Virus record (IMG/VR): IMGVR_UViG_3300045988_139374
Span: 160,001-224,000 of that record
Length of the DNA stretch: 64,000 nt
From: a virus
Direction: 5' to 3' (one strand)
Position numbers and translations under genes: made by a program. Position 1 is the first letter of the stretch; each line of letters opens with the position of its first letter. The notes beneath the pieces were generated by a model. The model saw nothing but the letters and a program-made list of their open reading frames with translations, was not told where the DNA came from and did not search any database. Shown one piece after another: positions 2,277 to 49,881 of the stretch.

Positions 2277-2570
2277 TCTGACGCTTCTATTAAGATCAAA
2301 ACAAAGTCTGGAAAATTTTCATATAGTAGCACTTACGGAAGAAATTATACATTTTATGATTATGAAGGAATATTTATTTCTGCATCAATTGACGGTATTG
2401 CATTTAACAATGATAATTATTTGTATAATTTGTATTATCCATCATTATATTCAATTCGTGTTAGTGATAAATATATTATTAAATCTTTCAATATTATAAG
2501 TTCTGATTCAGGAGGAAATAATATTTCTGGTATTGGAGATAATTTAAACATTATTATTTGCTATATTTAA
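2277..2570 (+). other. start-less fibre-tip-like cassette C1 (97 codons)
   Basis: Signal TGACGCTTCTATTAAG at 2279-2294. Frame TCT GAC GCT... gives SDASIKIKTKSGKF...NLNIIICYI-stop. TAA lies directly upstream in frame; no RBS or start codon. Confidence 0.6.
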
Positions 2571-2577
2571 AATTATT

Positions 2578-2612
2578 CAATAGAGAAATCTCTATTGGTT
2601 TTATTTTTTTTT
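2578..2612 (+). terminator. rho-independent terminator
   Basis: CAATAGAGA/TCTCTATTG palindrome 2578-2597 followed by T-run. Confidence 0.55.
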
Positions 2613-2634
2613 GTAGAATATATTAAAATACAAT

Positions 2635-3015
2635 AATCTGACGCTATTACGAAGTAGTCTGAGAAATCTGCCAAACCTCTATAAAAGGGCCTAAAATGGG
2701 CATTTTAAGAGGGTAAAATCGAGTGATTTTACACTTATTTTCAGTACTAAAAATTCAATTCAAGATAATAAATGTTTGATCAATAATCAATCTTAATTTA
2801 AAATATATAACAATATGGTAATGAAAGATGGTAGAAAAATCTTTTACCTTTAACAGCAGACACACAAACTATCTTTCATACATGAAGCATTCGATTTAAG
2901 ATTTATTGTGAAGACCGCTTTTAAGAGAGTCCCTTGGACTATAAACTGTGAAGACTTCGTTTAAGAAAATCAGATAAATCCATATCCAAGCCATTAAATG
3001 TAGTAGCGTCAGATT
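2635..3015. repeat. 16-bp inverted repeats (variant cassette signals) bounding a 349-bp non-coding segment
   Basis: AATCTGACGCTATTAC 2635-2650 versus the reverse complement of 3000-3015 (AATCTGACGCTACTAC): 15/16 match. Confidence 0.8.
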
Positions 3016-3065
3016 AAAATTGTGAAGCCTGCTTATATAGATTTTTGTGAAGACGACGGTTAAGA
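2882..3065 (+). repeat. five direct repeats of type GTGAAGAC-N5-TTAAGA
   Basis: R0 2882-2901, R1 2908-2926, R2 2948-2966, R3 3022-3041, R4 3047-3065; R1, R2 and R4 are each exactly 19 nt (GTGAAGAC N5 TTAAGA). Confidence 0.7.
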
Positions 3066-3073
3066 TTATTACT

Positions 3074-3111
3074 CGGTGTGGTCTTTATGATCACCCCGGA
3101 ATTTCTTTTTT
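3074..3111 (+). terminator. rho-independent terminator closing the non-coding module
   Basis: CGGTGTGGTC 3074-3083 pairs with GATCACCCCG 3089-3098 (9 of 10 positions), then a T-run. Confidence 0.5.
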
Positions 3112-3171
3112 AACAAAATATCACTATAAATAGCCCAAAATGGGTAATTTTAAGAAAGGAAATTTAATTTT

Positions 3172-4431
3172 ATGGCTATAATTGATAAAATTAAGGTTGG
3201 TAGCACTACCTATGATGTGTCGCCTTCTGCTTCTGGTACTCTGAACACTACTGGCACTACTAAGTTTGCTTCTAGTGACGTTGCTCAGGGAAATGCAACT
3301 GGCTGGACTAATGTAGATCAGATGACCACTGCTGATAACCATGCTACTCTGTTTACTAAGATCACTCAGATGGCAAAGAACGTCCGCTATCTGTACAATG
3401 TTCTTGGTACTGGCTTCTCCACTGGTTCTACTGTTAAGGGTCAGATTGATGGAAAAGCAGCAGCTAATCACTCTCACAAGGTTGCTCAACTGCCTACTTC
3501 TAGTACTCAAGTTAACTCCAATGACTATATTCCTACTTCTGCTCTGATCTATTCTATGAATCAGACTCTAACTTCGCTAAATGACGCTAGTAATAAACTT
3601 GGAGTCAGGATTTATAATACTAAATATGCAGTTGGAGGTATTCCTACCAAATCCCAATTTGCTGCAACTGACACTGTACAAAGCATTATTATTAAAATGC
3701 TAGGAGATATGGGTCAGAAACCCATTGACTCTTCTACACCTAATACAAGATATAAGTCTCAGAATCTTGGTACTTGGTCTAGTGTTAGTGATGTAGATAA
3801 TTTTCTTTATAGTTGTTGTCATGATACTGGTTATTATGGTGCTACTATTGGTAGTTATGTTACGATTAAAGATGGTGTATATAATAAAGAATGGATTATT
3901 GCTGGTTTTGATTGTGAAAAGAATCATAAAGCTTCCGATGGCAATACAAAGGATAATGGATATGGTATATGCTTAATACCTAAGAAGAGCTTAGGTAATT
4001 ATGTATGGGATTCTAATTCTATTATAAATGGATACAACGGATCTGAAATGCATAAGTCTACATTACCTGTAGTTGCGAATAATCTTAGAAAAGTATTAGG
4101 AAATCATCTTGTACAGCGTAATGTCCTTCTGAGTAATGCTGTAGATTCTAACTATTATGCTAAAGGCTATTTTTGGACTACTGCATATTGTACTCTTATG
4201 AGTACAGGACAAGTAACTGGTACATTTGCTTCTAATAGAAACAAGTATGATGATGGAGAAGCTAATTATAAACTTCCTTTGTTTAATTATGAAATATGGA
4301 GTTTTGATACCTGGGCCTGGTTGCGAGGGCTATTCGGCTACGGTGTCTATGGCCTTACCACTTCTGGTGGTTCTGGTTATGACATCTGTTACGTTAGTCA
4401 CGGTCTTCGCCCGCTCATTTATATTAGGTAA
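3172..4431 (+). CDS. DGR target: tail fibre / receptor-binding protein with C-terminal variable region
   Basis: 419-aa ORF. The N-terminus is paralogous to fibre 1395..2218 and includes NHSH. The C-terminus WAWLRGLFGYGVYGLTTSGGSGYDICYVSHGLRPLIYIR-stop resembles the CLec/FGE-type VR scaffold; the VR lies within the last ~115 nt of the ORF. Confidence 0.85.
   Translation: MAIIDKIKVGSTTYDVSPSASGTLNTTGTTKFASSDVAQGNATGWTNVDQMTTADNHATLFTKITQMAKNVRYLYNVLGTGFSTGSTVKGQIDGKAAANHSHKVAQLPTSSTQVNSNDYIPTSALIYSMNQTLTSLNDASNKLGVRIYNTKYAVGGIPTKSQFAATDTVQSIIIKMLGDMGQKPIDSSTPNTRYKSQNLGTWSSVSDVDNFLYSCCHDTGYYGATIGSYVTIKDGVYNKEWIIAGFDCEKNHKASDGNTKDNGYGICLIPKKSLGNYVWDSNSIINGYNGSEMHKSTLPVVANNLRKVLGNHLVQRNVLLSNAVDSNYYAKGYFWTTAYCTLMSTGQVTGTFASNRNKYDDGEANYKLPLFNYEIWSFDTWAWLRGLFGYGVYGLTTSGGSGYDICYVSHGLRPLIYIR
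4317..4417 (+). repeat. DGR variable region (VR)
   Basis: 101 nt align to TR with 12 mismatches, every one opposite a TR adenine. Confidence 0.9.
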
Positions 4432-4437
4432 TGGAAC

Positions 4438-4456
4438 TAGCCACCTTGTGTGGCTA
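4438..4456 (+). promoter_or_regulatory. hairpin just 3' of VR (candidate DGR homing-enhancing hairpin/cruciform)
   Basis: TAGCCAC 4438-4444 / loop CTTGT / GTGGCTA 4450-4456, about 20 nt after the VR end and 7 nt after the stop codon. Confidence 0.5.
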
Positions 4457-4537
4457 AGTGGAATTACCGTAATATAAATGAAAGGTGAAGGCTTAACGAG
4501 TAAATATATTATTAATATAAAATAAGAGGTGGTTTGT

Positions 4538-5347
4538 GTGTCTGTCGTTAAGGGTAAAAGAAATCAATCTGATGTTGAATATTTTGATTATGCATATAAA
4601 GTTGTGGAGCATATAACTAAATTTCTTTTATCTGATCTTGGGATTAAGAAAACTTATAGAGACTTAAAAGTTTTTACTTATAAATCTCATATGGAGGAAG
4701 CTGATAAAGAAGAATTTGAGCATTTAGTAAATAAGTATGATTTGGAATTGGAAACAGATTTTCCTAATTGGCTAATGTGCTATTATAGAGAAACATTATT
4801 AACAATCATGAGAGATCTAATCAATAATATATCTGCAGCTTATACACTATATCCAAATTCTGTTTATGAATTTAATATCAAGAAACAGTATATTTCTGAT
4901 TCTATAGCTAATTGTTTCGATTTAAAACATCAACTCCAATTAGTAATTAGAATATTTCCAGCAAATATGAAGAAATATATTCCATTTGTAAAAGAAATCG
5001 ATAAGGAAATAGAGCTTCTTAAACAGTGGCGAAAGAACTTTACAGGAATTTCTAAGAAGCATTGCTACAATCAAGATGAAATCGCTAAGAGAGATGCTAT
5101 TAAGAGAGTAAATAAGATTGAAGCAAAGAATGAGCGTAAACTTCAAGTGAACAATAATTTCCTTGTAGAATATATGAAAGCAGTTTACACTCAACAAGTG
5201 CTTATGGATAATCTATATCATACAACCTTCTATTATAATCAGCAAAATCAGTATTGCTCCGAACTGCCTATTGCAGCTTGTACATTCTTTGATCAAAATG
5301 GATATTATATTGGAGATTCTGCTCATGATTTTGTTACAACTAACTAA
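4538..5347 (+). CDS. candidate DGR accessory protein (Avd-like by position), otherwise hypothetical
   Basis: ORF lies between the target gene and TR. In-frame GTG at 4538 follows AAGAGGTGG. Predicted helical and basic. At ~270 aa it is longer than a typical Avd. Confidence 0.5.
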   Translation: MSVVKGKRNQSDVEYFDYAYKVVEHITKFLLSDLGIKKTYRDLKVFTYKSHMEEADKEEFEHLVNKYDLELETDFPNWLMCYYRETLLTIMRDLINNISAAYTLYPNSVYEFNIKKQYISDSIANCFDLKHQLQLVIRIFPANMKKYIPFVKEIDKEIELLKQWRKNFTGISKKHCYNQDEIAKRDAIKRVNKIEAKNERKLQVNNNFLVEYMKAVYTQQVLMDNLYHTTFYYNQQNQYCSELPIAACTFFDQNGYYIGDSAHDFVTTN

Positions 5348-5378
5348 ATAGTAAGGTGACTCTCTATAAATAATCTCG

Positions 5379-5497
5379 CTGGTTGCGAGGGCTATACGGC
5401 AACAACAACCTCAACAACAACAATGTCTATGGCCTTACCACTTCTGGTGGTTCTGATTATAACAACTGTAACAATAGTAACGGTCTTCGCCCGATCA
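5379..5497 (+). repeat. DGR template region (TR)
   Basis: 119 nt, AAC/AAT-rich (WLRGLYGNNNLNNNNVYGLTTSGGSDYNNCNNSNGLRPIN in the VR frame), intergenic between avd-like gene and RT. Confidence 0.9.
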
Positions 5498-5651
5498 ACA
5501 GCATCTTGGCAATTTAAGGATCGAAAGATCTGGCCAGGATGTCTGTATGAGGAGGGAGTTCCCTTTCCGAAAGGAAGAAACAATAAAGCTGGCTACGGTT
5601 CTGGCATTACGATGCTGAATCTATTGGGCTGGTATATTTTTTTTTATTTTT

Positions 5652-6938
5652 ATGATTATTGATTTTAGTAATGAAGATTGGGGCGAAAATCCCTGTGAAT
5701 ATACTGAAGGAAAATTAGATTCTATTGCAGATCCAGATAAATTATATCAATCTTATAGAAAAGCTTCTAAACCAATTTATTATAAAGCATCTACTCAAAG
5801 ATATGGATTAAATCTATTATCTAATATTGCTATTGCAAATGAAGCATTAAATAATGGATCTTATAAAATTGGAGATCCATATGAATTTATTCTCACAGAA
5901 CGCGGTAGAATTAGATATGTAAAAGCATTATATATGTTTGATCAAGTAGTGCAGAGATCTTTCAATGATAATGTATTAAATCCTGCTATTGCTAATAAGA
6001 TGATTTATGATAATGGAGCTTGTGTAAAAGGAAAAGGTGTTGCTTTTACAAGAATGAGATTTAAGCAGCATCTACAACAAGCATATTATCAATTTGGATA
6101 TGATGGTTATATAATGATCATCGATTTTTCTAAATATTTTGATAATATTCTTCATCAAGAAGCTTTAAAACAATTCGAACCTCTATTAACGCCAGAAGAA
6201 TACAATTTTCTTAAAATTACTTTTGATACATTCAAACTAGATGTATCTTATATGTCAGATGCAGAATATCTAGAAGCTAGAGATTCTCTGTTTAATCTTC
6301 TAGAATATTCTATGATGGCAAAAGAAAATTTCAAAGGATTAAAGCTTCTTGAAAAGTCTGTTGGAATTGGTAATCAAACTTCTCAAGGAACTGGAATGTA
6401 CTATCCTCATGAAATAGACAATTATGTGACTATAGTAAGAGGATATGGATTATATGGAAGGCATATGGATGATACATATGTATTTGCTAAAACTAAAGAA
6501 GAATTACAACAACTTCTTGAAGAAATAAAAGAATTGTGTAAGAATCTTGGAATTCATATTAATCTTAAGAAAACTAGAATAGAACCCATCAAGAATACAA
6601 TTTCATATCTTAAAATAAATTATAAAATTATTGAAACTGGAAGAGTATTTGAATTAGTCCCAAATAAAGTATTTAAAAGAGAAAAAGATAAATTAACAAA
6701 ATATAGGGATCTTTGCATTCAATATAAAATGACTGCTATTACAGTTCTTCAATGTTATCTTAGTTGGAGAGGTGTATATAATAAATTTGATTCTAAAAGA
6801 AAAATATATGCACTGGATTGCTATTTTAAAGATCTTTATTGTTTAGGATTTAGAGATACAAATCTATATGATTTGTTGCATTTCTATATGCGTGTAGAAA
6901 GAGAGAAATTAAATAACTATCCAGTCATGAAATATTAA
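5652..6938 (+). CDS. DGR reverse transcriptase
   Basis: IIDFSKYFDNI (motif A-like), VGIGNQTSQ (the DGR-typical [I/L]GNxxSQ), YGRHMDDTYVF (YxDD box). Confidence 0.9.
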   Translation: MIIDFSNEDWGENPCEYTEGKLDSIADPDKLYQSYRKASKPIYYKASTQRYGLNLLSNIAIANEALNNGSYKIGDPYEFILTERGRIRYVKALYMFDQVVQRSFNDNVLNPAIANKMIYDNGACVKGKGVAFTRMRFKQHLQQAYYQFGYDGYIMIIDFSKYFDNILHQEALKQFEPLLTPEEYNFLKITFDTFKLDVSYMSDAEYLEARDSLFNLLEYSMMAKENFKGLKLLEKSVGIGNQTSQGTGMYYPHEIDNYVTIVRGYGLYGRHMDDTYVFAKTKEELQQLLEEIKELCKNLGIHINLKKTRIEPIKNTISYLKINYKIIETGRVFELVPNKVFKREKDKLTKYRDLCIQYKMTAITVLQCYLSWRGVYNKFDSKRKIYALDCYFKDLYCLGFRDTNLYDLLHFYMRVEREKLNNYPVMKY

Positions 6939-6943
6939 AATAC

Positions 6944-6980
6944 TAGGTAAGGAATTTATTTCCTTACCTATTTTATTTTT
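6944..6980 (+). terminator. rho-independent terminator
   Basis: TAGGTAAGGAA 6944-6954 pairs with TTCCTTACCTA 6960-6970, followed by T-run. Confidence 0.7.
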
Positions 6981-7026
6981 AATTTTTTATTTGACAATTA
7001 ATTACTAAATTTAAGGAGGCTTATAT

Positions 7027-7617
7027 ATGTCCGACAAACGTACTGATTACATTTCTAAAGATCAAATGTATATGGGAATTGCTCAACTTGCTGCAATGAG
7101 ATCTAAAGATCCTAATTCTCAAGTTGGTGCAGTTTTTGTATCTTCTAATGATCGTATCCTTAGCATTGGTTATAATGGATTTCCTAATGGAATTTCTGAT
7201 GATGAATTCCCTTGGGCAAGAGAAGCTGAATCTGAAGAGAATACTAAATATCCTTATGTAGTTCATGCAGAAGAAAATGCTATTCTTAACTTCCGTGGAG
7301 ACCTTTCTGCTTTTAAAGGCTCTACTCTTTACGTAACAATGTTTCCTTGCCATAACTGTACGAAGGCTCTTATTCAAGTTGGCGTTAAGCATATTTATTA
7401 TGGTATTAATAAATATCCTGATACGGCAGATTTTAGAGAAGCTACTAGAATGCTTGATGCTGTTGGAATCAAGTATGAACAACTGGTCAATGATATGATT
7501 ATTATATCAACAAAAGATTTTATTGATGCTTTTAATAATCTATCAGATAAATCAAGAGATTTAACAGATCTAACAGGGTTTGTTGATAGGATGAATTTTC
7601 CTGAGTATTATAAATAA
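7027..7617 (+). CDS. dCMP deaminase (cytidine/deoxycytidylate deaminase fold)
   Basis: VVHAEENAI and MFPCHNCTKALIQVG (HAE...PCxxC zinc motifs); AAGGAGG RBS. Confidence 0.8.
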   Translation: MSDKRTDYISKDQMYMGIAQLAAMRSKDPNSQVGAVFVSSNDRILSIGYNGFPNGISDDEFPWAREAESEENTKYPYVVHAEENAILNFRGDLSAFKGSTLYVTMFPCHNCTKALIQVGVKHIYYGINKYPDTADFREATRMLDAVGIKYEQLVNDMIIISTKDFIDAFNNLSDKSRDLTDLTGFVDRMNFPEYYK

Positions 7618-7747
7618 TTCTTAAAATTTCTTTTGAGGATATATTATAATATTGATAGAAAGGAGTGGTAATATGATTAGGCCACCGTAACAATAGTATT
7701 CTTAAATCTCCAAAAGTATAAAATCACTAAGGAGGATAATTTCAAAC

Positions 7748-9463: not shown

Positions 9464-9590
9464 TGCTAAATGCGCAATAGTAGTAGCCAGCATTTCTGAA
9501 TGAATGCTATACTCTATCATTGATATTATCAGTATATAGGCAGTACTGATGATATAAGTCAATCTCCTATTTTATAAATCTCTTAAAGAG

Positions 9591-9635
9591 GGCCGGTAGA
9601 GATTTGATTCTCTACCGGCTTTTCTTTTTTTTTTA
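9591..9635. terminator. rho-independent terminator
   Basis: CCGGTAGAG 9593-9601 pairs with CTCTACCGG 9610-9618, followed by a long T-run. Confidence 0.75.
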
Positions 9636-9641
9636 TTTATT

Positions 9642-9875
9642 TTAGATATAAAATATTCTTACATTATATTTTACTATAGAAATAAGTTGTTTATTTAGAT
9701 CGATATTAAATGTAACGATTACATAATTTAAATAATCAGGGACGTAATATATGGCAACATATGGAAATCCAGAGATTGAATTTATGTCTGCACATATTGC
9801 AGATATTACAATTATATTGTTAAATGATTTCATTTCTGAAATATACATATCTCTTTGCTTAATAGAAGCGTCATT
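9642..9875 (-). other. start-less cassette C4 (77 codons), last of the minus-strand array
   Basis: Signal at 9858-9873 (rev); NDASIKQRDMYISEM...VRIFYI-stop. Confidence 0.55.
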
Positions 9876-10168
9876 TACATATCAAAATACCAACATTTGC
9901 ATGTAATAGGATTTTTACCATCGGTATATATTTCATTATCTGCAAGCCTTCCGACTTTTGTCATATAAACTTCACAGTTAGTAACTTTAAATGTACCATC
10001 ATCAAAATATCCACTGGCAGCTATTACAGGAAATGTATAATATCCAGCATTTCCTTTTGGATATAGTATTGGCATTGCTTGAATTATATATGCTTTAGAT
10101 AAGTACCCGCATGATGCATATTCACTATATGGAACTTTACAAGTATTAGTTTTAAGAGAAGCGTCATT
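9875..10168 (-). other. start-less cassette C5 (97 codons)
   Basis: Signal at 10151-10166 (rev, TGACGCTTCTCTTAAA); NDASLKTNTCKV...KCWYFDM-stop. Confidence 0.55.
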
Positions 10169-10496
10169 GTGCTTTACCTTTAATATAAAATATATTAATG
10201 ATGACTTCTGCATTTGATAAAGATGTTTTGTTAAAAGGCATAATTTTTTCATGCAATGTATCAATACCTAGTATATATAATTTTCTGCCAGTTGTCCAAA
10301 TACCAGTATTTGGATCTTGTGTTGAATCGATACTTGTAGATAGGAAAGTTAAATACATTCTAACAGTATTACTACAATATGCATAGTGAGCTATAATATC
10401 ATCATCAGTAACAGAAATATCTGTATCAAGAATAAAATAAGAAATATCATTCTTTACTCTACCTTGCTTCATTTTAATTTTAGTAGAAGCGTCATT
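10164..10496 (-). other. start-less cassette C6 (110 codons)
   Basis: Signal at 10479-10494 (rev); NDASTKIKMKQGRV...INIFYIKGKAQ; the stop is the TGA inside the next signal. Confidence 0.55.
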
Positions 10497-10506
10497 TATA
10501 TTGGTA

Positions 10507-10767
10507 TTATAGATTTTTTAAATAAAATACAATTAATCTTCTAATAGATGAATGCATTGTTAAAGTATTATTAGGGAATCCTCTTATATCTATATAATAA
10601 CATGAATCATCTTCATCATACCATATATCTACATATTCAGCTTGCTCAGTTTTACCTGTTATTTTAGATTCAATATAAAGTCCAACAATTGGAATTCCTA
10701 AATAAAAAGCTTGTTTACTACTTTTTGGAAGAGTTAATTCTATATTATATATAATAGAAGCGTCATT
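10507..10767 (-). other. start-less cassette C7 (86 codons)
   Basis: Signal at 10750-10765 (rev); NDASIIYNIELT...LIVFYLKNL-stop. Confidence 0.55.
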
Positions 10768-11065
10768 TACCAAAATAATAATATATTTTTATATTAAATG
10801 CTGTATTTACTTTTATTAATTTATAATCATTAATTTCAAACAATTGAATTATAGAATAAAAACTACCCTTTTCATATATTCCTTGATACATTGCTGGAAA
10901 TATATACTTAGGAGAATAATTGATAGGAAATAATGTTTGATTATACGTGGTACTATACACAGCAAATATTATATATGCTGATAGCCCAGATGGCACATCA
11001 TATCTTTCTTTATATATTCCATTCTCATCAGTTGTTACATCTTTACTCTTAATAGAAGCGTCATT
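10763..11065 (-). other. start-less cassette C8 (100 codons)
   Basis: Signal at 11048-11063 (rev); NDASIKSKDVTT...IKIYYYFGK; the stop is the TGA inside the next signal. Confidence 0.55.
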
Positions 11066-11384
11066 CACTAATATAATAGTATATTTTAATACCAATTTTA
11101 TCTGATGGCTTTATAAGCTGTCCATTGTCATTTATTTTATATACTTGAATTACAATATATCTATTAACAGCATCTGCAATTTTTCCATATGAGCCAGAAT
11201 ATATTGCAGGAATTATATATATTGGAACATTCATTTGATTTACTAGATTTCCAGTCATTGTGGATGTATTACTATATATCGCTAAAATATTTTTATGAGA
11301 ACTAATTCCAAATACGCCTAATGCAATTTTATATTCTCCACTGCTATCAGTTTCCACTATTTCATGTTTAATAGAAGCGTCAGA
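11061..11384 (-). other. start-less cassette C9 (107 codons)
   Basis: Signal at 11367-11382 (rev); SDASIKHEIVET...IKIYYYISE; the stop is the TGA inside the next signal. Confidence 0.55.
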
Positions 11385-11388
11385 CTTG

Positions 11389-11673
11389 TTAAATATAATA
11401 TATAATAATTGAAACATTACGTCCATTACGAGATGCCGTGCTGCCATTAATATCTGATGTATATACAAGAATAGTTCTAATTACCCATTCAACATCTGTA
11501 GTTTTAAATATTTGAATTAATGGAATAGATGAACTGGTATTTACAGCTGGATTTATGTATGCATTTATTAAAATTCCATTAGTAAATTTATATAAGTAAT
11601 CATTGTCATTTAAACCATTTGAATATTTTCTAGGATATACGGTATCAGTTTTAATCTTAATAGAAGCGTCAAA
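11389..11673 (-). other. start-less cassette C10 (94 codons), first of the minus-strand array
   Basis: Signal at 11656-11671 (rev); FDASIKIKTDTVYPRK...VSIIIYYI-stop; no ATG/GTG/TTG in frame, so it is absent from the ORF track. Confidence 0.55.
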
Positions 11674-11704
11674 TTATTAGATATTAAAATACTAGGTAAG
11701 GAAT

Positions 11705-11748
11705 CTACTAATGTTACAGTCGATGGTACCACTATAGTATTTGGATAA
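11705..11748 (+). pseudogene. orphan 3' end of a tail-fibre paralog
   Basis: Encodes ...TNVTVDGTTIVFG-stop (compare ...GVSVSGTTVVFG-stop of 1395..2218); 11725-11806 matches 2195-2276 with 1 mismatch; no upstream ORF. Confidence 0.55.
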
Positions 11749-11764
11749 TAAATATTATAAATAA

Positions 11765-11806
11765 AATTCCCATAGGATTTTTATATCCTATGGGATTCTT
11801 TTATAG
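11765..11806 (+). terminator. duplicate of the fibre-gene terminator
   Basis: Same hairpin as at 2235-2267. Confidence 0.6.
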
Positions 11807-11814
11807 TCTTATAA

Positions 11815-12393
11815 TCTGACGCTACTAAGAATTTTGGAAATGGAAGTCTAATTAAATCTATTACTTATGAAGGATCCTATACTACAAGTACTGTTTATTC
11901 ATATCAAATCGATGATTGGCTAAAAGTAAATTGTACTTCTACTAATCCTATTAGAACAAAAATATCTAGATTATATGATATTGTATTTTTCTTCGATACA
12001 GATGTTGAGGAGTTAGCTATAAATATGCTTAGACATTTATTTGCTGTTGGAGCTGACTATAAGTATCTTGGTGGATTTATACTCATGAAGAAAATATCAA
12101 ATGAATGGACACCTGGTAGATCTCTTTCTCAGGCTAGCTTTGATTATTTTTTAGGCCCATATATAGAATATGGATTGGCACCTAAACAATTTGTTAAATA
12201 TCGAGTAATTAGAGAGAATAATGCATATTATATAGATAGATATGTTGATACATCAGAGAAAAACTACAAAAATGATAATATTTCCTATCAGATATTATAT
12301 AGGAATACAGAACCGCATAAATATTTAATATATGGAATAGATTTTGAAGATCATGTATCTGATGTTGTGAATAGTAAGCCAGTAGATCAGTAA
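11815..12393 (+). other. start-less large cassette C11 (192 codons)
   Basis: Variant signal TGACGCTACTAAGAAT at 11817-11832; SDATKNFGNGSLIKSITYEG... is homologous to C17; TAA directly upstream in frame. Confidence 0.55.
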
Positions 12394-12404
12394 ATATAGT
12401 ATAC

Positions 12405-12679
12405 AATGACACTTCTAAAATAAAAACAATATACATGGATTAGGTAATGTAAAAACAACAACTAGGTATATAGATAATCAATATGGTAGTTATTATGAAA
12501 AATGCTATTATCTAGCTTCTGGAATTATGGTTGGGTATATGCTTGATCAAAGTACAATAGGATTATTATCTACATTCTTAACACAAGTAGGTAAATATAT
12601 AATGGCATTTAGATATGATAACACTGCAAAATCAATGAATACGATAGAGTGCACTATATCTATGCTTTATTATATTTAA
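12405..12679 (+). pseudogene. degenerate, frameshifted cassette C11b
   Basis: Variant signal TGACACTTCT at 12407; the head frame stops after 12 codons; another frame carries ...ECTISMLYYI-stop; length 275 nt is not a multiple of 3. Confidence 0.45.
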
Positions 12680-12730
12680 ACTTTAATTCCCCCTAAACAA
12701 TATATTACAAAATATTGTAGGAGGAATATT

Positions 12731-12898
12731 ATGGACAAATCTGATTTTTATAAAATTCTTTGTTCATCTACACCTGAAGAAATTAATCACTTTATTTCTT
12801 CTAAAGGCAAGATTAAAAATGTAAATGCTATTACATTTTTAGATGATCAAACTTTACAAGATCTACATTCTAATACGGATTCGAATCAATCTAATTAA
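12731..12898 (+). CDS. small hypothetical protein (55 aa)
   Basis: TAGGAGGA RBS 6 nt before ATG; MDKSDFYKILCSSTPEEINHF...; below the ORF-track size cut-off. Confidence 0.5.
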   Translation: MDKSDFYKILCSSTPEEINHFISSKGKIKNVNAITFLDDQTLQDLHSNTDSNQSN

Positions 12899-12919
12899 GT
12901 TATTAGCTCTTTTATATTT

Positions 12920-13001
12920 GCAGGAATGGTGGAATGGCAGACACGCTAGACTTAGGATCTAGTTCTTCGGAGTGAGGGTTCAAGTCCCTTTTCCTGCACC
13001 A
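12920..13001 (+). tRNA. tRNA-Leu (anticodon TAG), class II with long variable arm, CCA encoded
   Basis: Acceptor GCAGGAA/TTCCTGC; anticodon stem CTAGA/TCTAG with loop CTTAGGA; T-arm GAGGG-TTCAAGT-CCCTT; variable hairpin TTC-TTCG-GAG. Confidence 0.85.
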
Positions 13002-13033
13002 TGTAGAATTATCTCCCCTAATTCTACTCATAA

Positions 13034-13110
13034 GGGCTATTAGCTTAGTTGGTCAGAGCTTCTGGCTCATAACCGGATGGTCGTAGGTTCGAGTCCTACA
13101 TGGCCCACCA
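13034..13110 (+). tRNA. tRNA with CAT anticodon (elongator Met or Ile2), CCA encoded
   Basis: Acceptor GGGCTAT/ATGGCCC; anticodon loop CTCATAA; T-arm GTAGG-TTCGAGT-CCTAC. Confidence 0.85.
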
Positions 13111-14040: not shown

Positions 14041-14069
14041 TTGAGAAAAAGAAAGAGAGATGACCGATC

Positions 14070-14573: not shown

Positions 14574-14672
14574 ATTTTTAAGATTCTGGGGAAGGCCATT
14601 TAGGTCTTCCCCGCTTCTTTTGTATAAACTCAACTTTAGTATAATACTTTTATATGTAAGGAGGTAATCAAG

Positions 14673-45648: not shown

Positions 45649-45879
45649 CTACAATACATACCTTCTAATGAGATACATCCATTTTTTCTGAACAGCATAA
45701 AATAATGTAGCATTCAAATTATTATAATCTCTAGCATATTCAAAATCAAAATCATATCCAATCATAGTTCCATCTATTTTATATGCATGGCCAGAGTCAT
45801 AGACACTACTACAATCATGAACTTTAGATGTATAAACATTAGTTATTTTCTTTATAGAATTATTATTAGAAGCGTCAGA
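45649..45879 (-). other. start-less cassette C12 (76 codons)
   Basis: Signal at 45862-45877 (rev, TGACGCTTCTAATAAT); SDASNNNSIKKITNVYTSK... Confidence 0.5.
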
Positions 45880-45883
45880 CTTA

Positions 45884-46117
45884 TTAAATATAGATGATGT
45901 TTGCATGACATGAAGTATTACCAGATAATGATGAACCATCGGAATAGTGATCCATATCTACGAATCTACAATATAATTTTCCATTATTTTGATAAATATA
46001 GTCTATATCACTGTATTTAATACGATCTAATATATCAAATCCTATCAATGTACCATTTAATGTATATCCATCTTTAGTAATATAAATATTACTAAGCTTT
46101 TTTATAGAAGCGTCATT
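45884..46117 (-). other. start-less cassette C13 (77 codons)
   Basis: Signal at 46100-46115 (rev); NDASIKKLSNIYITKDG...CHANIIYI-stop-stop. Confidence 0.55.
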
Positions 46118-46152
46118 AGTATTTTAAAAAGTATTTATTTTCACTTGTATAG

Positions 46153-46191
46153 TATAAAATTGAAATAGAAAGAAGAAAGAGTACTTCTATT
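46153..46191 (+). promoter_or_regulatory. conserved 39-nt upstream element (TATAAnAnTGA-ATAGAAG-N13-CTTCTAT)
   Basis: 35/39 identical to 47869-47907; both copies end ~30-50 nt upstream of the start codon of a plus-strand gene. Confidence 0.5.
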
Positions 46192-46240
46192 TATGTATTA
46201 GCAAAAAAACAAATATAGTGTACTTATAGGAGGTACAATT

Positions 46241-46567: not shown

Positions 46568-46572
46568 AGCAA

Positions 46573-46616
46573 AATGTGAGTAAGAGATATCTCTTACTCA
46601 CATTTATTTTTTTTAT
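46573..46616 (+). terminator. rho-independent terminator
   Basis: Perfect 16-bp palindrome AATGTGAGTAAGAGAT/ATCTCTTACTCACATT followed by T-run. Confidence 0.75.
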
Positions 46617-46621
46617 AATGA

Positions 46622-46879
46622 TTTGACGCTTCTATTAAGAGTACTGTAATCACAACACCTAGTGATTATTCATCTGTAGATTTTAAGCTTGGAATTCCAG
46701 TAGGCGTATTTCCATATTCATCTAGAGATATAAGCGTATATCAATTGTATGAAGTATATTATAGATATTATGATTCTACCATTATATCATTTGGAATTAG
46801 AAGTATTAATATTAAAAATAATGGAAATATAGAGTATTGTATAGGTCAGCAAATTTTAGTGTATTATATTCCAATTTGA
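46622..46879 (+). other. start-less cassette C14 (85 codons)
   Basis: Signal at 46624-46639; FDASIKSTVITTPSDY...QQILVYYIPI-stop; converges on and overlaps C15. Confidence 0.55.
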
Positions 46880-47119
46880 AATATAAAAAATATTTAAAGT
46901 TAACCCTGCAATTCTTTTAAATTTAGTAAAATCATCACCAATAGCTTGACCAACGACTATTACATAATTATCGTTATTATTTTTATATTGCATTATAAAT
47001 TGGAATCCTTCGCTTAAATCATTATTACCAATAATAGTATTAATTAAAATTTTATCTAGTGATATTGTATATCCATTTATAGAACTAATAGCTGTCATCA
47101 TTTTAATAGAAGCGTCAGA
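46856..47119 (-). other. start-less cassette C15 (87 codons)
   Basis: Signal at 47102-47117 (rev); SDASIKMMTAISSINGY...LNIFYISNWNIIH-stop. Confidence 0.55.
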
Positions 47120-47146
47120 CTTATTTATAAAGGAGGTAAATTTATT

Positions 47147-47800: not shown

Positions 47801-47801
47801 A

Positions 47802-47845
47802 GATAGAGGTAGAGTATTTTTACTCTACCTCTATTATATTTTAAT
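47802..47845 (+). terminator. rho-independent terminator
   Basis: ATAGAGGTAGAGTA pairs with TACTCTACCTCTAT. Confidence 0.6.
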
Positions 47846-47868
47846 TATTGTACTAAATAAATATATAA

Positions 47869-47907
47869 TATAATAATGAGATAGAAGGAAGAAAGAGTAC
47901 TTCTATT
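47869..47907 (+). promoter_or_regulatory. second copy of the conserved 39-nt upstream element
   Basis: See 46153-46191. Confidence 0.5.
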
Positions 47908-47936
47908 GGCCTGTAAATAAAAGTGGAGGTATTAAA

Positions 47937-48749
47937 ATGATTGATGGATTAAAGATGCTTACAGAAGACGATGTAAAAATCGAATTCTTAGAATCAGCAA
48001 ACAATGGAATATGCTATATTGCAATGGTTGAGTATTCGATTAGTTATGGCAAAATCGAATATAAGATGTATTCCGTAAGAACTGTTGTAAAAATACCAAT
48101 TTTTAGAACTCGTCGTTGTATTATTGTAGATAATATTCCTGATAATGAATATATCGATGCTAATTACGATAATGTCAAATGCCGTTATGATAATATGGCT
48201 AAAACATTATTTGAAAATAATAGAATAGTATATGATGGTGTCGAAACCATTGATCAAAATGCGTTTGTATCTAAGATTTGCTTGGATGCATGTGTAAAAA
48301 AGATCAATCGCGCTACAGCAAAATTATATTTCCAAAATATGAACATCAGTTTTTTAAACATTGATGTGAATAAAAAACTTCCGACTCAGTTGGATATGAC
48401 TATATTTATCAATGGTAATCAGGAAACTATTAGCATTATGAATGTGAACAAAATTAAAAAGCATGGCGCTTCTCGTGCAAGGTCTAATAGTTTTTATATC
48501 ATTGATAAGAAAGTTCATAAATCTATAATTTATTGCATGCTAGATGCAATAAGAGAGATATATGGATATGGACTATACGAATATGGTCTTGACAGATGCG
48601 ATTTAAAATCTATTAATGATATTCTCAATAAATATAACATTGAATATGGCGATGATATATTTATTGATATTGAATCTAAATACGAATATATCATTAATAT
48701 GATAGATAATCATATTAATGATAATACTGATGAAATGGTATATCAATAA
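47937..48749 (+). CDS. hypothetical protein
   Basis: 270-aa ORF, GTGGAGG RBS. Confidence 0.6.
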   Translation: MIDGLKMLTEDDVKIEFLESANNGICYIAMVEYSISYGKIEYKMYSVRTVVKIPIFRTRRCIIVDNIPDNEYIDANYDNVKCRYDNMAKTLFENNRIVYDGVETIDQNAFVSKICLDACVKKINRATAKLYFQNMNISFLNIDVNKKLPTQLDMTIFINGNQETISIMNVNKIKKHGASRARSNSFYIIDKKVHKSIIYCMLDAIREIYGYGLYEYGLDRCDLKSINDILNKYNIEYGDDIFIDIESKYEYIINMIDNHINDNTDEMVYQ

Positions 48750-48756
48750 TATAAAA

Positions 48757-48797
48757 GGAGTGGGTTCCATTCGCCCACTCCTTTTATTTTTTTTTTC
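48757..48797 (+). terminator. rho-independent terminator (near-identical to 1286..1325)
   Basis: GGAGTGG 48757-48763 pairs with CCACTCC 48775-48781, followed by T-run. Confidence 0.7.
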
Positions 48798-48821
48798 AAA
48801 AAGTAGATTAAAATACAATAA

Positions 48822-49115
48822 TCTGACGCTTCTATTAAGTACATAGATATTTCATTACATCTAAAGAGTAGTATATCATATGAACATAACATATCATCAA
48901 ATCCTATTATATCTATTATAGGAGTTTTTACAAATATTAGTAATTGTATTCCAATACTTAATAATCTATCTTTTGAAGAAAAAATTGATTCTAATGATAA
49001 CTTAGTCGAATTCCAAGTAATTGACTATAATTTATATACTATAAGTAGTGGAAAATTAATATTAACAAAAGTATCTGGATATGTTACTATATTTTATATT
49101 GAACCTTCCAATTAA
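48822..49115 (+). other. start-less cassette C16 (97 codons)
   Basis: Signal at 48824-48839, directly after the promoter-like box; SDASIKYIDISLHLK...YVTIFYIEPSN-stop. Confidence 0.55.
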
Positions 49116-49119
49116 ATAA

Positions 49120-49626
49120 TCTGACGCTTCTAAGAATTTTGGAAATGGAAGTTTTATTAAATCCATTACTTATGAAGGATATTATACAATTAGTGATAAA
49201 TATATAAACCATATGAGTTCAGATACTTGTATTAGAACTACTGTATCTAAAATGTATGATGTTGTGTTATTCGCTGAATTAGAAACTACAAACAATACTT
49301 TATTAGCTGAGCAAAATCCATATGTTAAAGTATTTCAAAATATTATCAAAGGTTCATTTGCTGGATATGTATTTATGAATTTAATGCCTACATCTTGGAA
49401 GATTTTATATAATAATACTTCTAGCAATGATTTTATTGGGCCATATGTTGAATATGATCATTGTCCTACAAGTGGTGTAGTAGCTAGAAGAAATAGATTA
49501 TCCATAGAAAGATACTGTGCAAAGTATACTAACAATATGGATTATCAATTATTAGCTAGACAAGGCATTAGATATGATGTATATGGTCTAATGCTTAGAG
49601 ATGAAATTGCTAATCTATTTAGATAA
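49120..49626 (+). other. start-less large cassette C17 (168 codons)
   Basis: Signal at 49122-49137; SDASKNFGNGSFIKSITYEG... is homologous to C11. Confidence 0.55.
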
Positions 49627-49627
49627 G

Positions 49628-49881
49628 TATGACGCTTCTATCAAGCGAACTGTTGTTACTCTTAAATATAATAATACCGAAGTAGGATGTAAATTTACAT
49701 TAGGAGCTCCAGTTGGAGGATATATACTTACAGAAATTAATAGCTGGATTGTAATACGTATGGATAAAAATATGAATATTCTATATTTGGAATTTATGTT
49801 CGTACTTGGTTAGGTGACGGATTAATTGAAAAAATTCAATATATAGATAATTATTATAAAGCTACTATATTTTACATTTAA
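49628..49881 (+). pseudogene. frameshifted cassette C18
   Basis: Signal at 49630-49645; YDASIKRTVVTL... stops at TAG 49811-49813, while ...YYKATIFYI-stop lies in another frame; one extra A in the A5 run at ~49766-49770 would fuse them. Confidence 0.5.

What the first reader, a model, noticed from the sequence alone, without database searches (positions are those of the whole stretch)
2277..49881. Dispersed family of 17 start-less fibre-tip-like cassettes, almost all stop-bounded, each headed by the invariant signal TGACGCTTCT(ATTAAG)
The 10-mer TGACGCTTCT occurs 15 times. Plus-strand cores start at 2279, 46624, 48824, 49122 and 49630. Minus-strand cores lie at 9858-9873, 10151-10166, 10479-10494, 10750-10765, 11048-11063, 11367-11382, 11656-11671, 45862-45877, 46100-46115 and 47102-47117. 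There are 4 further variant copies (2639, 3001-3011 reversed, 11817, 12407). For this base composition my rough estimate is well under one chance copy. In 17 of the 19 copies the frame T|GAC GCT TCT ATT AAG (x-D-A-S-I-K) heads a 76-192 codon cassette of beta-rich composition that usually ends ...I-(Y/F)-Y-I-stop; 15 are continuously open and 2 are frame-broken, and the two exceptions are the variant copies at 2639 and 3001-3011, which head no cassette. None has an SD plus start codon at its head, whereas nearly every ordinary gene here has an AGGAGG-type RBS. Most are preceded by an in-frame stop within 1-3 codons. Past the signal the cassettes are highly diverged, so conservation is at the nucleotide level rather than the protein level. 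Two copies of a tail-fibre 3' end sit directly upstream of signals. This is the architecture of silent, exchangeable C-terminal modules (Mu G, P1 C, p15B Min multiple inversion, R64 shufflon, pilS-type cassettes). It differs in having far more sites, three loci up to ~47 kb apart, both orientations, and no recombinase or in-frame expression site in this window. An RNA-level or RT-mediated cassette transfer is a more speculative alternative.
Basis: partly seen in the sequence, partly recalled or inferred. Interest (0 to 1): 0.95.

Follow-up and report, generated by a model that had tools for sequence, protein, structure and literature searches.

The report
Swappable tail-fibre tip cassettes in phage
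A gut jumbo-type phage stores about 20 start-less receptor-binding "tips", each headed by the same short DNA signal. It joins them at that signal to one shared tail-fibre front half, so this is a very large recombination-based host-range switch of a known general kind.

Summary
TGACGCTTCT occurs 15 times (0.03 expected) and its core TGACGCT 20 times (2.3 expected). Every exact copy heads a 60-167 codon frame that has no start signal.

1. The expression site is inside the window. ORF 3172-4431 is a constant 137-aa fibre front, then an in-frame variant site (TGACGCTAGTAATAAA, 3582-3597), then a 282-aa module. That module is also the target of a diversity-generating retroelement (DGR).
2. A XerC/D-like tyrosine recombinase gene ends 34 bp before the window start.

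Public metagenomes hold 65 fibre proteins with this same constant front fused at ..SLN|DAS.. to different cassettes (37 families). Several of these cassettes are 92-99% identical to cassettes that are silent in other contigs.

Relatives differ by a precise inversion, by cassette replacements, and by relocation of the 0.95-kb "head" module (window 2639-3588, itself bounded by sites) into at least five contexts. All breakpoints lie at TGACGCT. Contigs in several assemblies end exactly at the motif.

The enzyme, the switching rate and whether switching is programmed remain inferred.

Verdict: a new, unusually large and dispersed variant of a phage shufflon, coupled to a DGR.

The parts
2639..3588 (+). 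'Head' (expression) module. It runs from head site TGACGCTATTACGAAG (2639-2654), through a 530-nt non-coding leader and the RBS, to codons 1-137 of the fibre gene. It ends in the junction core TGACGCT (3582-3588).
   Evidence: Homology of L168, L169, L178, L179 and L045 to the window starts exactly at 2639 and ends at 3588, in five different flanking contexts.
3172..4431 (+). Expressed fibre gene (419 aa): constant part aa 1-137 (..IYSMNQTLTSLN), then DAS, then the resident 282-aa module.
   Evidence: The constant part is 79-99% identical in 65 fusion proteins. It is 53% identical to the N-terminus of fibre-1.
3582..3597 (+). In-frame junction site, variant TGACGCTAGTAATAAA (Ser codon AGT instead of TCT).
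   Evidence: It is canonical (TGACGCTTCT..) at the same place in L169, L178 and L179.
3583..4431 (+). Resident large C-terminal module (DASNKLGV..), which carries the DGR variable repeat. The same module is silent and start-less in relatives.
   Evidence: Silent at the end of cassette arrays in L060, L078 and L147, and in L046.
4317..4417 (+). DGR variable repeat (VR) at the 3' end of the resident module.
   Evidence: the mismatches to TR fall at TR adenines.
5379..5497 (+). DGR template repeat (TR).
5652..6938 (+). DGR reverse transcriptase (428 aa).
   Evidence: phrog_1423, E = 7e-50; PF00078.
2279..2570 (+). Silent cassette (96 aa, no Met), which travels with its own terminator (2577-2598).
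   Evidence: The same cassette has three different left contexts, in the window, L045 and L046. A homologue is fused to the constant part in P0138.
2996..3011 (-). Inverted variant site (TGACGCTACT..) inside the leader. It heads only 23 codons.
   Evidence: It is canonical TGACGCTTCT in L169. Its function is unknown.
9642..9873 (-). Silent cassette, 76 aa, last of the 7-cassette minus-strand array. A terminator follows at about 9600.
   Evidence: It is replaced by two other cassettes in L033, with the breakpoint at the motif.
9875..10166 (-). Silent cassette, 96 aa (DASLKTNTCKVP..).
   Evidence: Relatives of this cassette type sit in cluster 4 of L037 and are fused in P0141 and P0156.
10164..10494 (-). 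Silent cassette, 109 aa.
10507..10765 (-). Silent cassette, 85 aa.
10763..11063 (-). Silent cassette, 99 aa.
11061..11382 (-). Silent cassette, 106 aa.
11389..11671 (-). Silent cassette, 93 aa (no Met), first of the minus-strand array.
11713..11809 (+). Second copy of the fibre-1 3' end plus terminator (93% identical to 2183-2279). It is flanked by inverted sites at 11656-11671(-) and 11817(+), and is a relic of an earlier rearrangement.
   Evidence: D3.
11817..12393 (+). Silent long cassette (191 aa), headed by TGACGCTACT. It is a paralogue of the cassette at 49122.
   Evidence: (D5).
12407..12679 (+). Frame-broken cassette headed by TGACACTTCT, ending ..LYYI*.
   Evidence: An intact homologue is fused to the constant part in P0148.
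45649..45877 (-). Silent cassette, which appears frame-broken: 75 codons then TAG, with no ..Y(I) tail.
45884..46115 (-). Silent cassette, 76 aa (DASIKKLSNIYI..).
   Evidence: This type is fused in P0146, P0169, P0182 and others.
46624..47117 (.). Segment bounded by inverted sites that holds two convergent cassettes: 46624-46879 (+), 84 aa, and 46856-47117 (-), 86 aa.
   Evidence: The orthologous segment is inverted between L061 and L126, with breakpoints in the motif. In L169 it follows the constant part directly.
48824..49115 (+). Silent cassette, 96 aa (no Met).
49122..49626 (+). Silent long cassette, 167 aa.
49630..49881 (+). Frame-broken cassette (60 codons, then ..IFYI* in another frame), followed by a terminator.

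Best explanation
What it is. This is a modular receptor-binding fibre system.

- One 'head' module (window 2639-3588) supplies the leader, the start codon and a constant 137-aa N-terminal fibre part. That part ends in a predicted helix, ..IYSMNQTLTSLN.
- Each 'tail' module is a start-less beta-rich domain of about 70-110 aa (some 170-280 aa). It begins with DAS and brings its own stop codon.
- Every module is headed by the asymmetric DNA site T-GAC-GCT-(TCT-ATT-AAG). Its 7-bp core TGACGCT is common to all variants.

How it works. Whichever tail module lies directly 3' of the head module in the same orientation is translated as the fibre tip. All the others are silent. In this window that is 17 of them, in three clusters; a fourth cluster lies about 4 kb past the window end.

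How modules change place. Modules are re-joined by breakage and reunion inside the core. Two kinds of event are seen or implied:
- inversion between inverted sites;
- excision and integration (or an equivalent exchange) between direct sites, which also moves the head module itself between arrays.

Most likely enzyme. The phage's own XerC/D-like tyrosine recombinase, whose gene ends 34 bp upstream of the window. On this view the 7-bp core is the overlap region.

Second layer. In this genome the resident tip is the large module. A DGR (TR 5379-5497, RT 5652-6938) diversifies it further.

Shown: the in-frame fusions, the silent and fused states of the same cassettes, and the breakpoints at the core.
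Inferred: the enzyme, the conservative site-specific chemistry, and that switching is frequent or programmed rather than occasional.
For: 1. The signal is highly over-represented. In 119 unique copies from the window and relatives it always heads an open frame that ends ..(I/V)(Y/F/W)Y(I/V)*. T at -1 and AA at +12/+13 are invariant.

2. Window ORF 3172-4431 carries a variant site in frame between the constant part and a module.

3. A full HMMER scan found P0010, the constant part plus a small cassette. Its contig L169 shows the canonical site at the junction.

4. A census with the constant part found 71 protein clusters with the ..SLN(D/N)A junction. Of these, 65 have C-terminal modules of 40 aa or more, in 37 families, with total lengths mostly 205-244 aa.

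5. The same cassette is fused in one contig and silent in another: 98.8, 97.7, 95.9, 94.7, 92.8 and 91.9% identity for six pairs. The large resident module is silent in L060, L078, L147 and L046.

6. Rearrangements have their breakpoints in the motif:
- L061 447-933 is the inverse of L126 4348-4831, with collinear flanks;
- cassettes are replaced in L033 relative to the window and in L061 relative to L126;
- cluster 4 holds 2 to at least 7 cassettes depending on strain;
- the head module sits in five contexts.

7. Contigs end exactly at motif edges. L147 (5,246 nt, coverage 81) starts with TGACGC.. and ends with its reverse complement. L055, L078 and L040 end the same way. L109 and L119, from one assembly, share the same 55-nt right side but have two different left sides.

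8. Orthologous cassettes have median dN/dS of 0.55, so they are translated genes and not decaying junk.

9. AlphaFold2 of a fusion protein gives a helix at 122-138 followed directly by a confident (pLDDT 91-96) beta domain that starts at DAS.

10. The only site-specific recombinase found in about 82 kb is a XerA/C/D-like tyrosine recombinase. No serine recombinase was found among the 20 ORFs scanned.
Against: - The recombinase is not tied to the motif by co-occurrence. Homologues at 63-71% identity keep the same gyrB-gyrA-recombinase synteny in about 280-kb relatives, with no motif within 10 kb either side. In L178 the head module lies in a different neighbourhood. The recombinase may therefore have another job, such as multimer resolution.
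- All rearrangements seen are between samples or strains. The 85-kb contig from the window's own sample is collinear with the window over the 21 kb compared (window 1-16,938 and 4.3 kb upstream) and is not broken at the motif copies there.
- Contig ends at the motif could also come from duplicated cassettes within one genome.
- The site has no obvious dyad symmetry.
- The junction site in this window is a variant (AGT) that may or may not be active.
- Fold searches gave no significant match, so 'receptor-binding tip' rests on context.
Confidence: 0.75

Rival explanations
1. Evolutionary mosaicism only. The conserved linker sequence acts as a microhomology at which general or phage-encoded homologous recombination occasionally swaps modules. 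The swaps occur between co-infecting genomes or between repeats. There is no dedicated recombinase and no programmed switching. This resembles the shuffling of small ORFs between conserved regulatory repeats (PeSLs) in T4-type phages, as I recall that work.
For: - All rearrangements documented are between different samples.
- The recombinase is a conserved clade gene with no demonstrated link to the site.
- The 85-kb contig from the window's own sample is collinear with the window over the 21 kb compared, with no break at the motif copies there.
Against: - A 7-16 bp identity is very short for homologous exchange, yet the breakpoints are always precise and both junctions of the inversion are intact.
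- The nucleotide sequence of the site is far more conserved than its amino acids require, while the cassettes have diverged to about 23% identity.
- Roughly 20 intact start-less modules are kept per genome under purifying selection.
- Contig graphs branch exactly at the motif in several assemblies.
Confidence: 0.18
2. The motif is a promoter, transcription start or unusual translation-start element of independently expressed small genes. The cassettes are made as free small proteins.
For: - The first cassette of each cluster follows a terminator and a TATAAT-like hexamer.
- Each cluster ends in a terminator.
- Gene callers can find occasional upstream starts, as in P0004.
Against: - There is no start codon or Shine-Dalgarno sequence, although ordinary genes here have strong ones.
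- The motif heads only this one family, not a temporal class of genes.
- 65 proteins show the cassettes translated as C-terminal parts of the fibre.
- Codon 4 varies too much to be a start codon.
Confidence: 0.03
3. RNA-level joining (trans-splicing or ribosomal bypass), or RT-mediated copying of cassettes into the fibre gene.
For: An RT gene lies between the expression site and the array. The fibre-1 gene ends GGA-TAA before a hairpin, reminiscent of T4 gene 60.
Against: - The RT has its own canonical TR/VR pair with adenine-specific mismatches.
- The fusions are present in DNA contigs.
- No landing codon lies in the right frame.
- There is no Rfam match.
Confidence: 0.02

Closest known systems
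Rin shufflon of Bifidobacterium prophages (Mavrich et al. 2018, PMC6109161) and the BV01-like tail-fibre shufflon of Phocaeicola phages (PMC13596623)
   Same: All are phage-encoded. A constant N-terminal receptor-binding-protein part is joined to alternative start-less C-terminal segments, each headed by a short asymmetric repeat (11-bp rix; a 10-bp motif in the BV01-like phages). The Rin recombinase is an XerD-like tyrosine enzyme without an arm-binding domain. Inversions are seen between genomes.
   Different: Those are compact loci, with all variable segments between the constant-region gene and the recombinase gene (three cassettes in the BV01-like locus), in temperate phages. Here there are at least 18 modules in the window and more outside it, in at least four clusters spread over more than 65 kb. 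Long arrays of direct repeats occur, and the head module itself relocates. One module is also a DGR target. The phage is a relative of jumbo phages with its own RNA polymerase. The role of the recombinase is unproven.
R64 / IncI plasmid shufflon (Rci tyrosine recombinase, 19-bp sfx sites, pilV C-terminal segments); from my own knowledge
   Same: Multiple C-terminal segments are exchanged at an asymmetric site in which a core and one arm are conserved and the other arm is not. A tyrosine recombinase does the exchange. Convergent cassette pairs lie between inverted sites, like window 46624-47117.
   Different: R64 has 7 sites in about 2 kb and only inverts. No NCBIfam model with a shufflon or Rci name was among the 13 families matched, and the top matches were XerA/C/D below their cut-offs. 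Here direct arrays and relocation of the expression part occur.
Serine-invertase tail-fibre switches: Mu Gin/G, P1 Cin/C, p15B Min; from my own knowledge, and as summarised in PMC6109161
   Same: The purpose and gene logic are the same: a constant fibre N-terminus with alternative C-termini, giving alternative host ranges.
   Different: No serine recombinase was found among 20 ORFs scanned. The site lacks dyad symmetry. There are far more modules, and they are dispersed.
Integrons (IntI, attI/attC gene cassettes); from my own knowledge
   Same: Arrays of promoterless cassettes in one orientation are bounded by a recombination core. Cassette number and order vary between strains. The enzyme class is a tyrosine recombinase. 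The relocation pattern fits excision and integration.
   Different: The logic is inverted: the mobile piece includes the promoter/leader and the N-terminal half of the gene. Cassettes lack start codons and are fused in frame. The site is a short linear motif without hairpin-forming attC palindromes. Models for the integron integrase match only partly and far below cut-off.
Diversity-generating retroelements (BPP-1 Mtd type)
   Same: A canonical DGR is present in the same gene and diversifies the tip of the resident module.
   Different: The DGR makes point variation within one module. The TGACGCT system exchanges whole modules. The combination in one fibre gene is the unusual part.

Membership tests
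Shufflon-type C-terminal switching system (R64, Rin, BV01-like) | A constant N-terminal coding region is followed in frame by the crossover repeat. | tested here: met
   Window 3172-3597. The repeat is canonical at the same junction in L169, L178 and L179.
Shufflon-type C-terminal switching system (R64, Rin, BV01-like) | There are several alternative start-less C-terminal segments, each headed by the same short asymmetric repeat. | tested here: met
   17 silent modules in the window and 119 unique copies in relatives. The logo is asymmetric.
Shufflon-type C-terminal switching system (R64, Rin, BV01-like) | The same segments are found both silent and fused to the constant part. | tested here: met
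   Six pairs at 92-99% identity. The large module is expressed in the window and silent in L060, L078, L147 and L046.
Shufflon-type C-terminal switching system (R64, Rin, BV01-like) | Inversion occurs between inverted repeats, with isoforms in one population. | tested here: inconclusive
   A precise inversion separates two samples. Contigs end at the motif, and one assembly has two left contexts for one cassette. No read-level data from a clonal population were available.
Shufflon-type C-terminal switching system (R64, Rin, BV01-like) | A dedicated site-specific recombinase acts on the repeat. | tested here: inconclusive
   A Xer-like tyrosine recombinase gene lies 3.3 kb upstream of the expression site. 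It is conserved in relatives without a visible motif nearby and is not adjacent in L178.
Shufflon-type C-terminal switching system (R64, Rin, BV01-like) | The invertible locus is compact and lies next to the gene. | tested here: not met
   There are clusters at 2.3, 9.6-12.7 and 45.6-49.9 kb, plus one beyond the window end.
Serine-invertase fibre switches (Gin/Cin/Min/Pin) | A serine recombinase, and dyad-symmetric crossover sites of about 26 bp. | tested here: not met
   No resolvase or invertase domain in the 20 ORFs scanned. The site is not dyad-symmetric. Only part of the genome was seen.
Integron | An IntI-type integrase reaching the family cut-off, and attC sites with imperfect inverted repeats. 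| tested here: not met
   TIGR02249 scores 100 bits against a cut-off of 265, and NF011946 scores 69 against 435. The cassette boundaries are a linear 16-mer with no palindrome.
Diversity-generating retroelement | A TR/VR pair with adenine-specific mismatches next to an RT, with VR at the 3' end of a target gene. | tested here: met
   This applies to the resident module only, not to the TGACGCT system.
Gene-conversion antigenic variation (pilE/pilS, vlsE) | Non-reciprocal copying occurs from silent cassettes that share homology with the expression site on both flanks. | tested here: not met
   The only shared sequence is the 7-16 nt head site. The observed inversion is reciprocal, with both junctions intact.

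The most novel reading that the evidence does not exclude
The phage runs an 'inside-out integron'. A 0.95-kb mobile head module carries the leader and the N-terminal half of the fibre gene and is bounded by TGACGCT sites. It is excised and re-inserted by the Xer-like recombinase at the head of, or inside, any of several arrays of silent tips scattered over a jumbo-type genome. Local inversions then reorder the arrays. Some of the segments that move carry essential genes: a 5.2-kb segment bounded by inverted sites holds an RNA-polymerase subunit gene and the dCMP deaminase gene. A DGR fine-tunes one of the tips. Together these would give a single lytic phage population dozens of receptor specificities.
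Probability: 0.4. Interest if true: 0.9.

Novelty: new variant of a known kind. Interest (0 to 1): 0.82.

Why it matters
Host range is the main limit on what a phage can infect. It also limits the use of phages in therapy or in editing the microbiome.

Known fibre switches offer 2-6 alternatives from one compact locus. This system stores about 20 tips per genome. Across public gut metagenomes it couples one constant fibre stem to at least 37 tip families, and it adds DGR mutagenesis on top.

If switching is active, it is the largest programmed receptor-binding repertoire known in a virus. It would also be a natural plug-and-play scaffold: a fixed stem, a 7-bp joint and about 80-aa tips, usable for engineering phage specificity.

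It also shows that start-less ORF families headed by a conserved DNA word are a searchable signature of such systems in metagenomes.

Tried and rejected
- Close relatives among isolated phages: megablast of 24 kb found nothing. An IMG/VR scan for the 16-mer gave only single chance hits.
- Known RNA families, including introns and ribozymes: only two tRNAs matched.
- Promoter reading: the upstream logo is weak and mostly reflects AT-richness plus the stop codon of the previous cassette. Sigma-70-like sites are not enriched. TTAAAATAC occurs only 5 times.
- Translational tricks, considered by reading the sequence:
  - ATG-A overlap re-initiation gives a frame that closes after 7-26 codons.
  - RF2-like +1 shifting at UGA-C has no slippery P-site codon and cannot serve the first cassette of a cluster.
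  - T4 gene-60-like bypass from the GGA-TAA end of fibre-1 has no landing codon in frame.
  - AUU as a start codon fails because codon 4 is not conserved.
- Cassette-like domains at the C-termini of other large window proteins: none found by HMM.
- A first word-indexed homologue search with the cassette profile found only five short gene calls. The fusion protein came only from the exhaustive HMMER scan.
- Structure searches with two AlphaFold2 models gave no significant matches. The weak top hits were H-type lectin and fibre or tailspike C-terminal domains.
- Co-occurrence of the recombinase and the motif in more distant relatives: not supported in the 20-kb windows seen.
- I could not reach the remaining roughly 190 kb of the genome. 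Related contigs reach 219-283 kb.

Full report
**1. The observation**

The 10-mer TGACGCTTCT occurs 15 times in the 64-kb window, at exactly the coordinates given. Dinucleotide-preserving shuffles give 0.03. The 16-mer TGACGCTTCTATTAAG with up to two mismatches occurs 14 times against 0.05 expected.

In all 15 copies the frame GAC GCT TCT (D-A-S) stays open for 60-167 codons, and the other two frames close within a few codons. Four cassettes have no methionine at all. Eight have an in-frame stop one to three codons upstream.

The window is 27-33% G+C in these regions, so open frames of this length cannot be chance. The peptides align as one very diverged all-beta family, with DAS(I)K at the head and ..(I/V)(Y/F)Y(I) at the tail.

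Ordinary genes beside them have strong AGGAGG-type ribosome-binding sites. The cassettes have none. The two copies of a fibre 3' end plus terminator are real (family D3).

**2. Where the window comes from**

Proteins of the window are encoded on human-gut metagenome contigs of 85-138 kb. One of these matches window 1-16,938 at 99.96%. Contigs with related fibre genes reach 219-283 kb.

A virion protein has its best isolate matches, at 25-29% identity, in AR9/PBS1/S6-type and phiKZ-type jumbo phages. The window encodes a phage RNA-polymerase subunit and a dCMP deaminase.

In the contig that extends the window to the left, a 329-aa XerA/C/D-like tyrosine recombinase gene ends 34 bp before window position 1. 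It lies downstream of gyrB and gyrA.

**3. The family in relatives**

A scan of public metagenome contigs for the 16-mer found 18 related loci with 2-10 copies each. A fourth cluster lies about 4 kb beyond the window end, with 2 to at least 7 cassettes depending on the strain.

Across 119 unique copies the picture is the same. Each copy has an open frame of about 70-110 codons (some 170). The in-frame open stretch upstream is only 0-34 codons, with one of 70.

The logo shows T at -1 and AA at +12/+13 invariant. There is a moderately conserved right side and a weak AT-rich left side with no dyad symmetry. Orthologous cassettes have a median dN/dS of 0.55. They are therefore fast-evolving but translated.

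**4. The expression site**

An exhaustive HMMER scan with the cassette profile found one 219-aa protein, P0010, in which a cassette follows a 136-aa N-terminal part. That N-terminal part is the N-terminus of window ORF 3172-4431.

In the window the junction reads ..ACT TCG CTA AAT GAC GCT AGT AAT AAA.., that is ..T S L N | D A S N K... The site is present in frame as TGACGCTAGTAATAAA at 3582-3597. Its serine codon is AGT instead of TCT, which is why exact searches missed it. It is the only copy in the window with a long upstream frame: 143 codons upstream and 282 downstream.

The 282-aa module behind it carries the variable repeat of a canonical DGR. The repeats are VR 4317-4417 and TR 5379-5497, with mismatches at TR adenines, and the RT is at 5652-6938.

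In P0010's contig (L169) the same constant part is joined through the canonical TGACGCTTCTATTAAA to a small cassette. A convergent cassette and an inverted site follow.

**5. Census of fusions**

A search with the constant part (aa 1-137 plus DAS) returned 78 protein clusters. Of these, 71 have the ..MNQTL(T/N)SLN(D/N)A.. junction. Of those, 65 carry a C-terminal module of at least 40 aa. Their total lengths are mostly 205-244 aa, and the modules fall into 37 families at 50% identity.

The constant part stays 79-99% identical to the window. Six fused cassettes are 92-99% identical to cassettes that are silent in other contigs.

Conversely, the large module that is expressed in the window is start-less at the end of a cassette array in L060, L078 and L147, and in L046.

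AlphaFold2 of one fusion gives a helix at residues 122-138, ending at ..SLN. A confident beta domain (pLDDT 91-96) follows, beginning at DAS. Fold searches gave no significant hits. The weak top matches were H-type lectin and fibre or tailspike C-terminal domains.

The 'fibre' label rests on three things:
- 53% identity of the constant part to the neighbouring fibre-1 gene, whose C-terminal half matches PF22337 Phage_fiber_rpt;
- the gene being a DGR target;
- this domain architecture.

**6. Rearrangements, all with breakpoints in the motif**

(a) L061 447-933 is the reverse of L126 4348-4831. Both flanks are collinear, and the overlaps between the alignments are the motif itself. This is the orthologue of the window segment 46624-47117, which holds two convergent cassettes between inverted sites.

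(b) Cassettes are replaced between L033 and the window, and between L061 and L126. Homology ends at the motif in each case.

(c) The same cassette (window 2279-2570) has three different left contexts that diverge at the T of TGACGC.

(d) Homology to window 2639-3588 starts exactly at the variant site TGACGCTATTACGAAG at 2639. The homology ends at the junction core. It recurs in five different contexts:
- in the window, it follows cassette 2279 and precedes the large module;
- in L168, it follows a four-cassette array;
- in L169, it precedes the cluster-3 invertible pair;
- in the 268.8-kb contig of L178, it lies after an ordinary gene near DNA polymerase, ThyA and DHFR genes, followed by five direct cassettes;
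- in L179, 97% identical to the window, it is inserted between cassettes of cluster 4.

The leader plus constant region is therefore itself a site-bounded, relocating module. The common denominator of all these working variants is the 7-bp core TGACGCT, with 20 copies in the window against 2.3 expected.

**7. Hints of heterogeneity within samples**

- L147 is a 5,246-nt contig with coverage 81. It comes from the same sample as a 120-kb contig with coverage 91. It begins with TGACGCTACT.. and ends with the reverse complement of TGACGCTTCTATTAAG. It is a segment bounded exactly by inverted sites. It carries the large module, the dCMP deaminase gene and the RNA-polymerase subunit gene.
- L055, L078 (both ends) and L040 end at the motif edge or exactly 55 nt (one k-mer) from it.
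- L109 and L119, from one assembly, share an identical 55-nt right side and have two different left sides that diverge at the base before TGACGC.

A 16-nt repeat cannot break a k=55 graph of a single clonal genome. These ends therefore point to alternative junctions in the sample. Duplicated cassettes within one genome, or mixed strains, are not excluded.

Against frequent switching, the 85-kb contig from the window's own sample is collinear with the window over the 21 kb compared, with no break at the motif copies there.

**8. Mechanism**

Shown: DNA-level, in-frame joining of one constant part to many modules at a fixed 7-bp core; reciprocal inversion; replacement and relocation at that core.

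Inferred: conservative site-specific recombination with TGACGCT as the overlap region. Its asymmetry would define orientation. Inverted sites would then invert and direct sites would excise or integrate.

The candidate enzyme is the Xer-like tyrosine recombinase. It is the only site-specific recombinase seen in about 82 kb, and it is of the same type as the recombinase proposed for the Rin shufflon.

Its link to the site is not established. Homologues at 63-71% identity occupy the same gyrase-linked position in about 280-kb relatives, with no motif within 10 kb.

**9. Rivals**

- Occasional homologous exchange at a conserved linker remains possible (about 0.18). It explains poorly the strict nucleotide conservation, the precision at 7-16 nt, and the maintenance of about 20 intact silent modules.
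- A promoter or translation-start element is contradicted by the fusions and by the restriction of the motif to one family.
- RNA-level or RT-mediated joining is unnecessary, because the junctions are in DNA and the RT has its own TR/VR pair.

**10. Comparison and novelty**

Fibre-tip switching by DNA rearrangement is known: Mu Gin, P1 Cin and p15B Min, which use serine recombinases. Phage shufflons that use or are proposed to use tyrosine recombinases have also been described: Rin (PMC6109161) and a BV01-like phage (PMC13596623). A text search for the motif found only unrelated primer sequences.

This case differs in four ways:
- scale: at least 18 modules in this window, and at least 37 tip families on one stem across metagenomes;
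- dispersal: at least four clusters over more than 65 kb, with essential genes inside the movable segments;
- a head module that itself relocates;
- coupling to a DGR in the same gene.

I file it as a new variant of a known kind.

Noticed in passing
window 4317-6938: A canonical DGR: VR 4317-4417 at the 3' end of ORF 3172-4431, TR 5379-5497 with adenine-specific mismatches and an 18-nt indel, and RT 5652-6938. ORF 4529-5347 (272 aa, no family match) sits where an accessory gene would be.
   Followed up: partly
window 1784-1792 (fibre-1 gene 1395-2218): The gene is split into two frames by a poly-G run. The run is G9 in the window, L049 and L050, and G8 in L030 and L047. Neither length restores one frame; G7 or G10 would. 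This could be slippage-based phase variation, programmed frameshifting, or a sequencing artefact at a homopolymer.
   Followed up: partly
window 2905-3065: Four copies of a repeat of about 20 nt, TGTGAAGACnnCnnTTAAGA, lie in the leader of the expression module. They are conserved in L169. With one indel they resemble the recombination site (TGA.G.C..TTAAGA). They may be accessory binding sites or relics.
   Followed up: partly
window 2840-2879 vs 4522-4561: There is an inverted 40-nt copy (83% complementary) of the RBS and 5' end of ORF 4529 inside the leader. It looks like a relic of an earlier inversion.
   Followed up: no
window 7748-9463 (about 9207-9212): The RNA-polymerase subunit gene is interrupted in relatives. 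L033 and L034 aa instead of 571 aa, with inserted DNA. In L034 the insert holds an HNH_3/NUMOD4 homing-endonuclease gene. This is probably an intron or a free-standing homing element.
   Followed up: no
window 46148-46191 and 47864-47907: A conserved 44-nt element (89% identical) lies upstream of two ordinary genes that sit between cassettes. It is probably a promoter or operator of one gene class.
   Followed up: no
window 1271-1330, 48742-48801: A near-identical terminator plus following element (92% over 60 nt) is found after the 402-aa gene and after ORF 47937-48749. The sequence ..GTAGATTAAAAT.. that follows also precedes the fibre-1 gene and two motif copies.
   Followed up: no
window 52951-56610 (-): The 1219-aa ORF varies in length among close relatives (1043, 1219, 1265 and 1438 aa). 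Some have an extra small ORF after it. This points to a second, motif-independent variable C-terminus, perhaps another receptor-binding protein.
   Followed up: no
window 14673-24971: A 3432-aa ORF with Peptidase_C39_2, CHAP and phage-lysozyme domains, according to the precomputed Pfam hits.
   Followed up: no
window 42-1250: A 402-aa protein rich in CxxC zinc-ribbon motifs lies between the recombinase and fibre-1 genes. It has a weak PHROG match to HNH endonucleases (E = 1e-8). It is absent from that position in more distant relatives (L170-L177).
   Followed up: partly
window 60247-60262: TGACACTCCTAAAACT lies in frame inside ORF 59732-60787, with 174 open codons upstream and 179 downstream. 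It has two mismatches to the 10-mer and is probably chance.
   Followed up: no
L045 181-213: A gene caller read TAG as a sense codon to extend a cassette call (P0003 'MLRKIFSKQT-DASIK'). The window's long ORFs show no sign of stop-codon reassignment.
   Followed up: partly
P0193-P0208 (distant relatives): Fibre proteins only 51-55% identical keep ..IYSMNQTL(T/N)SLNDA but continue with L, I, W, Y or M and with unrelated C-termini. This suggests the same joint exists with a different right arm in other lineages.
   Followed up: no
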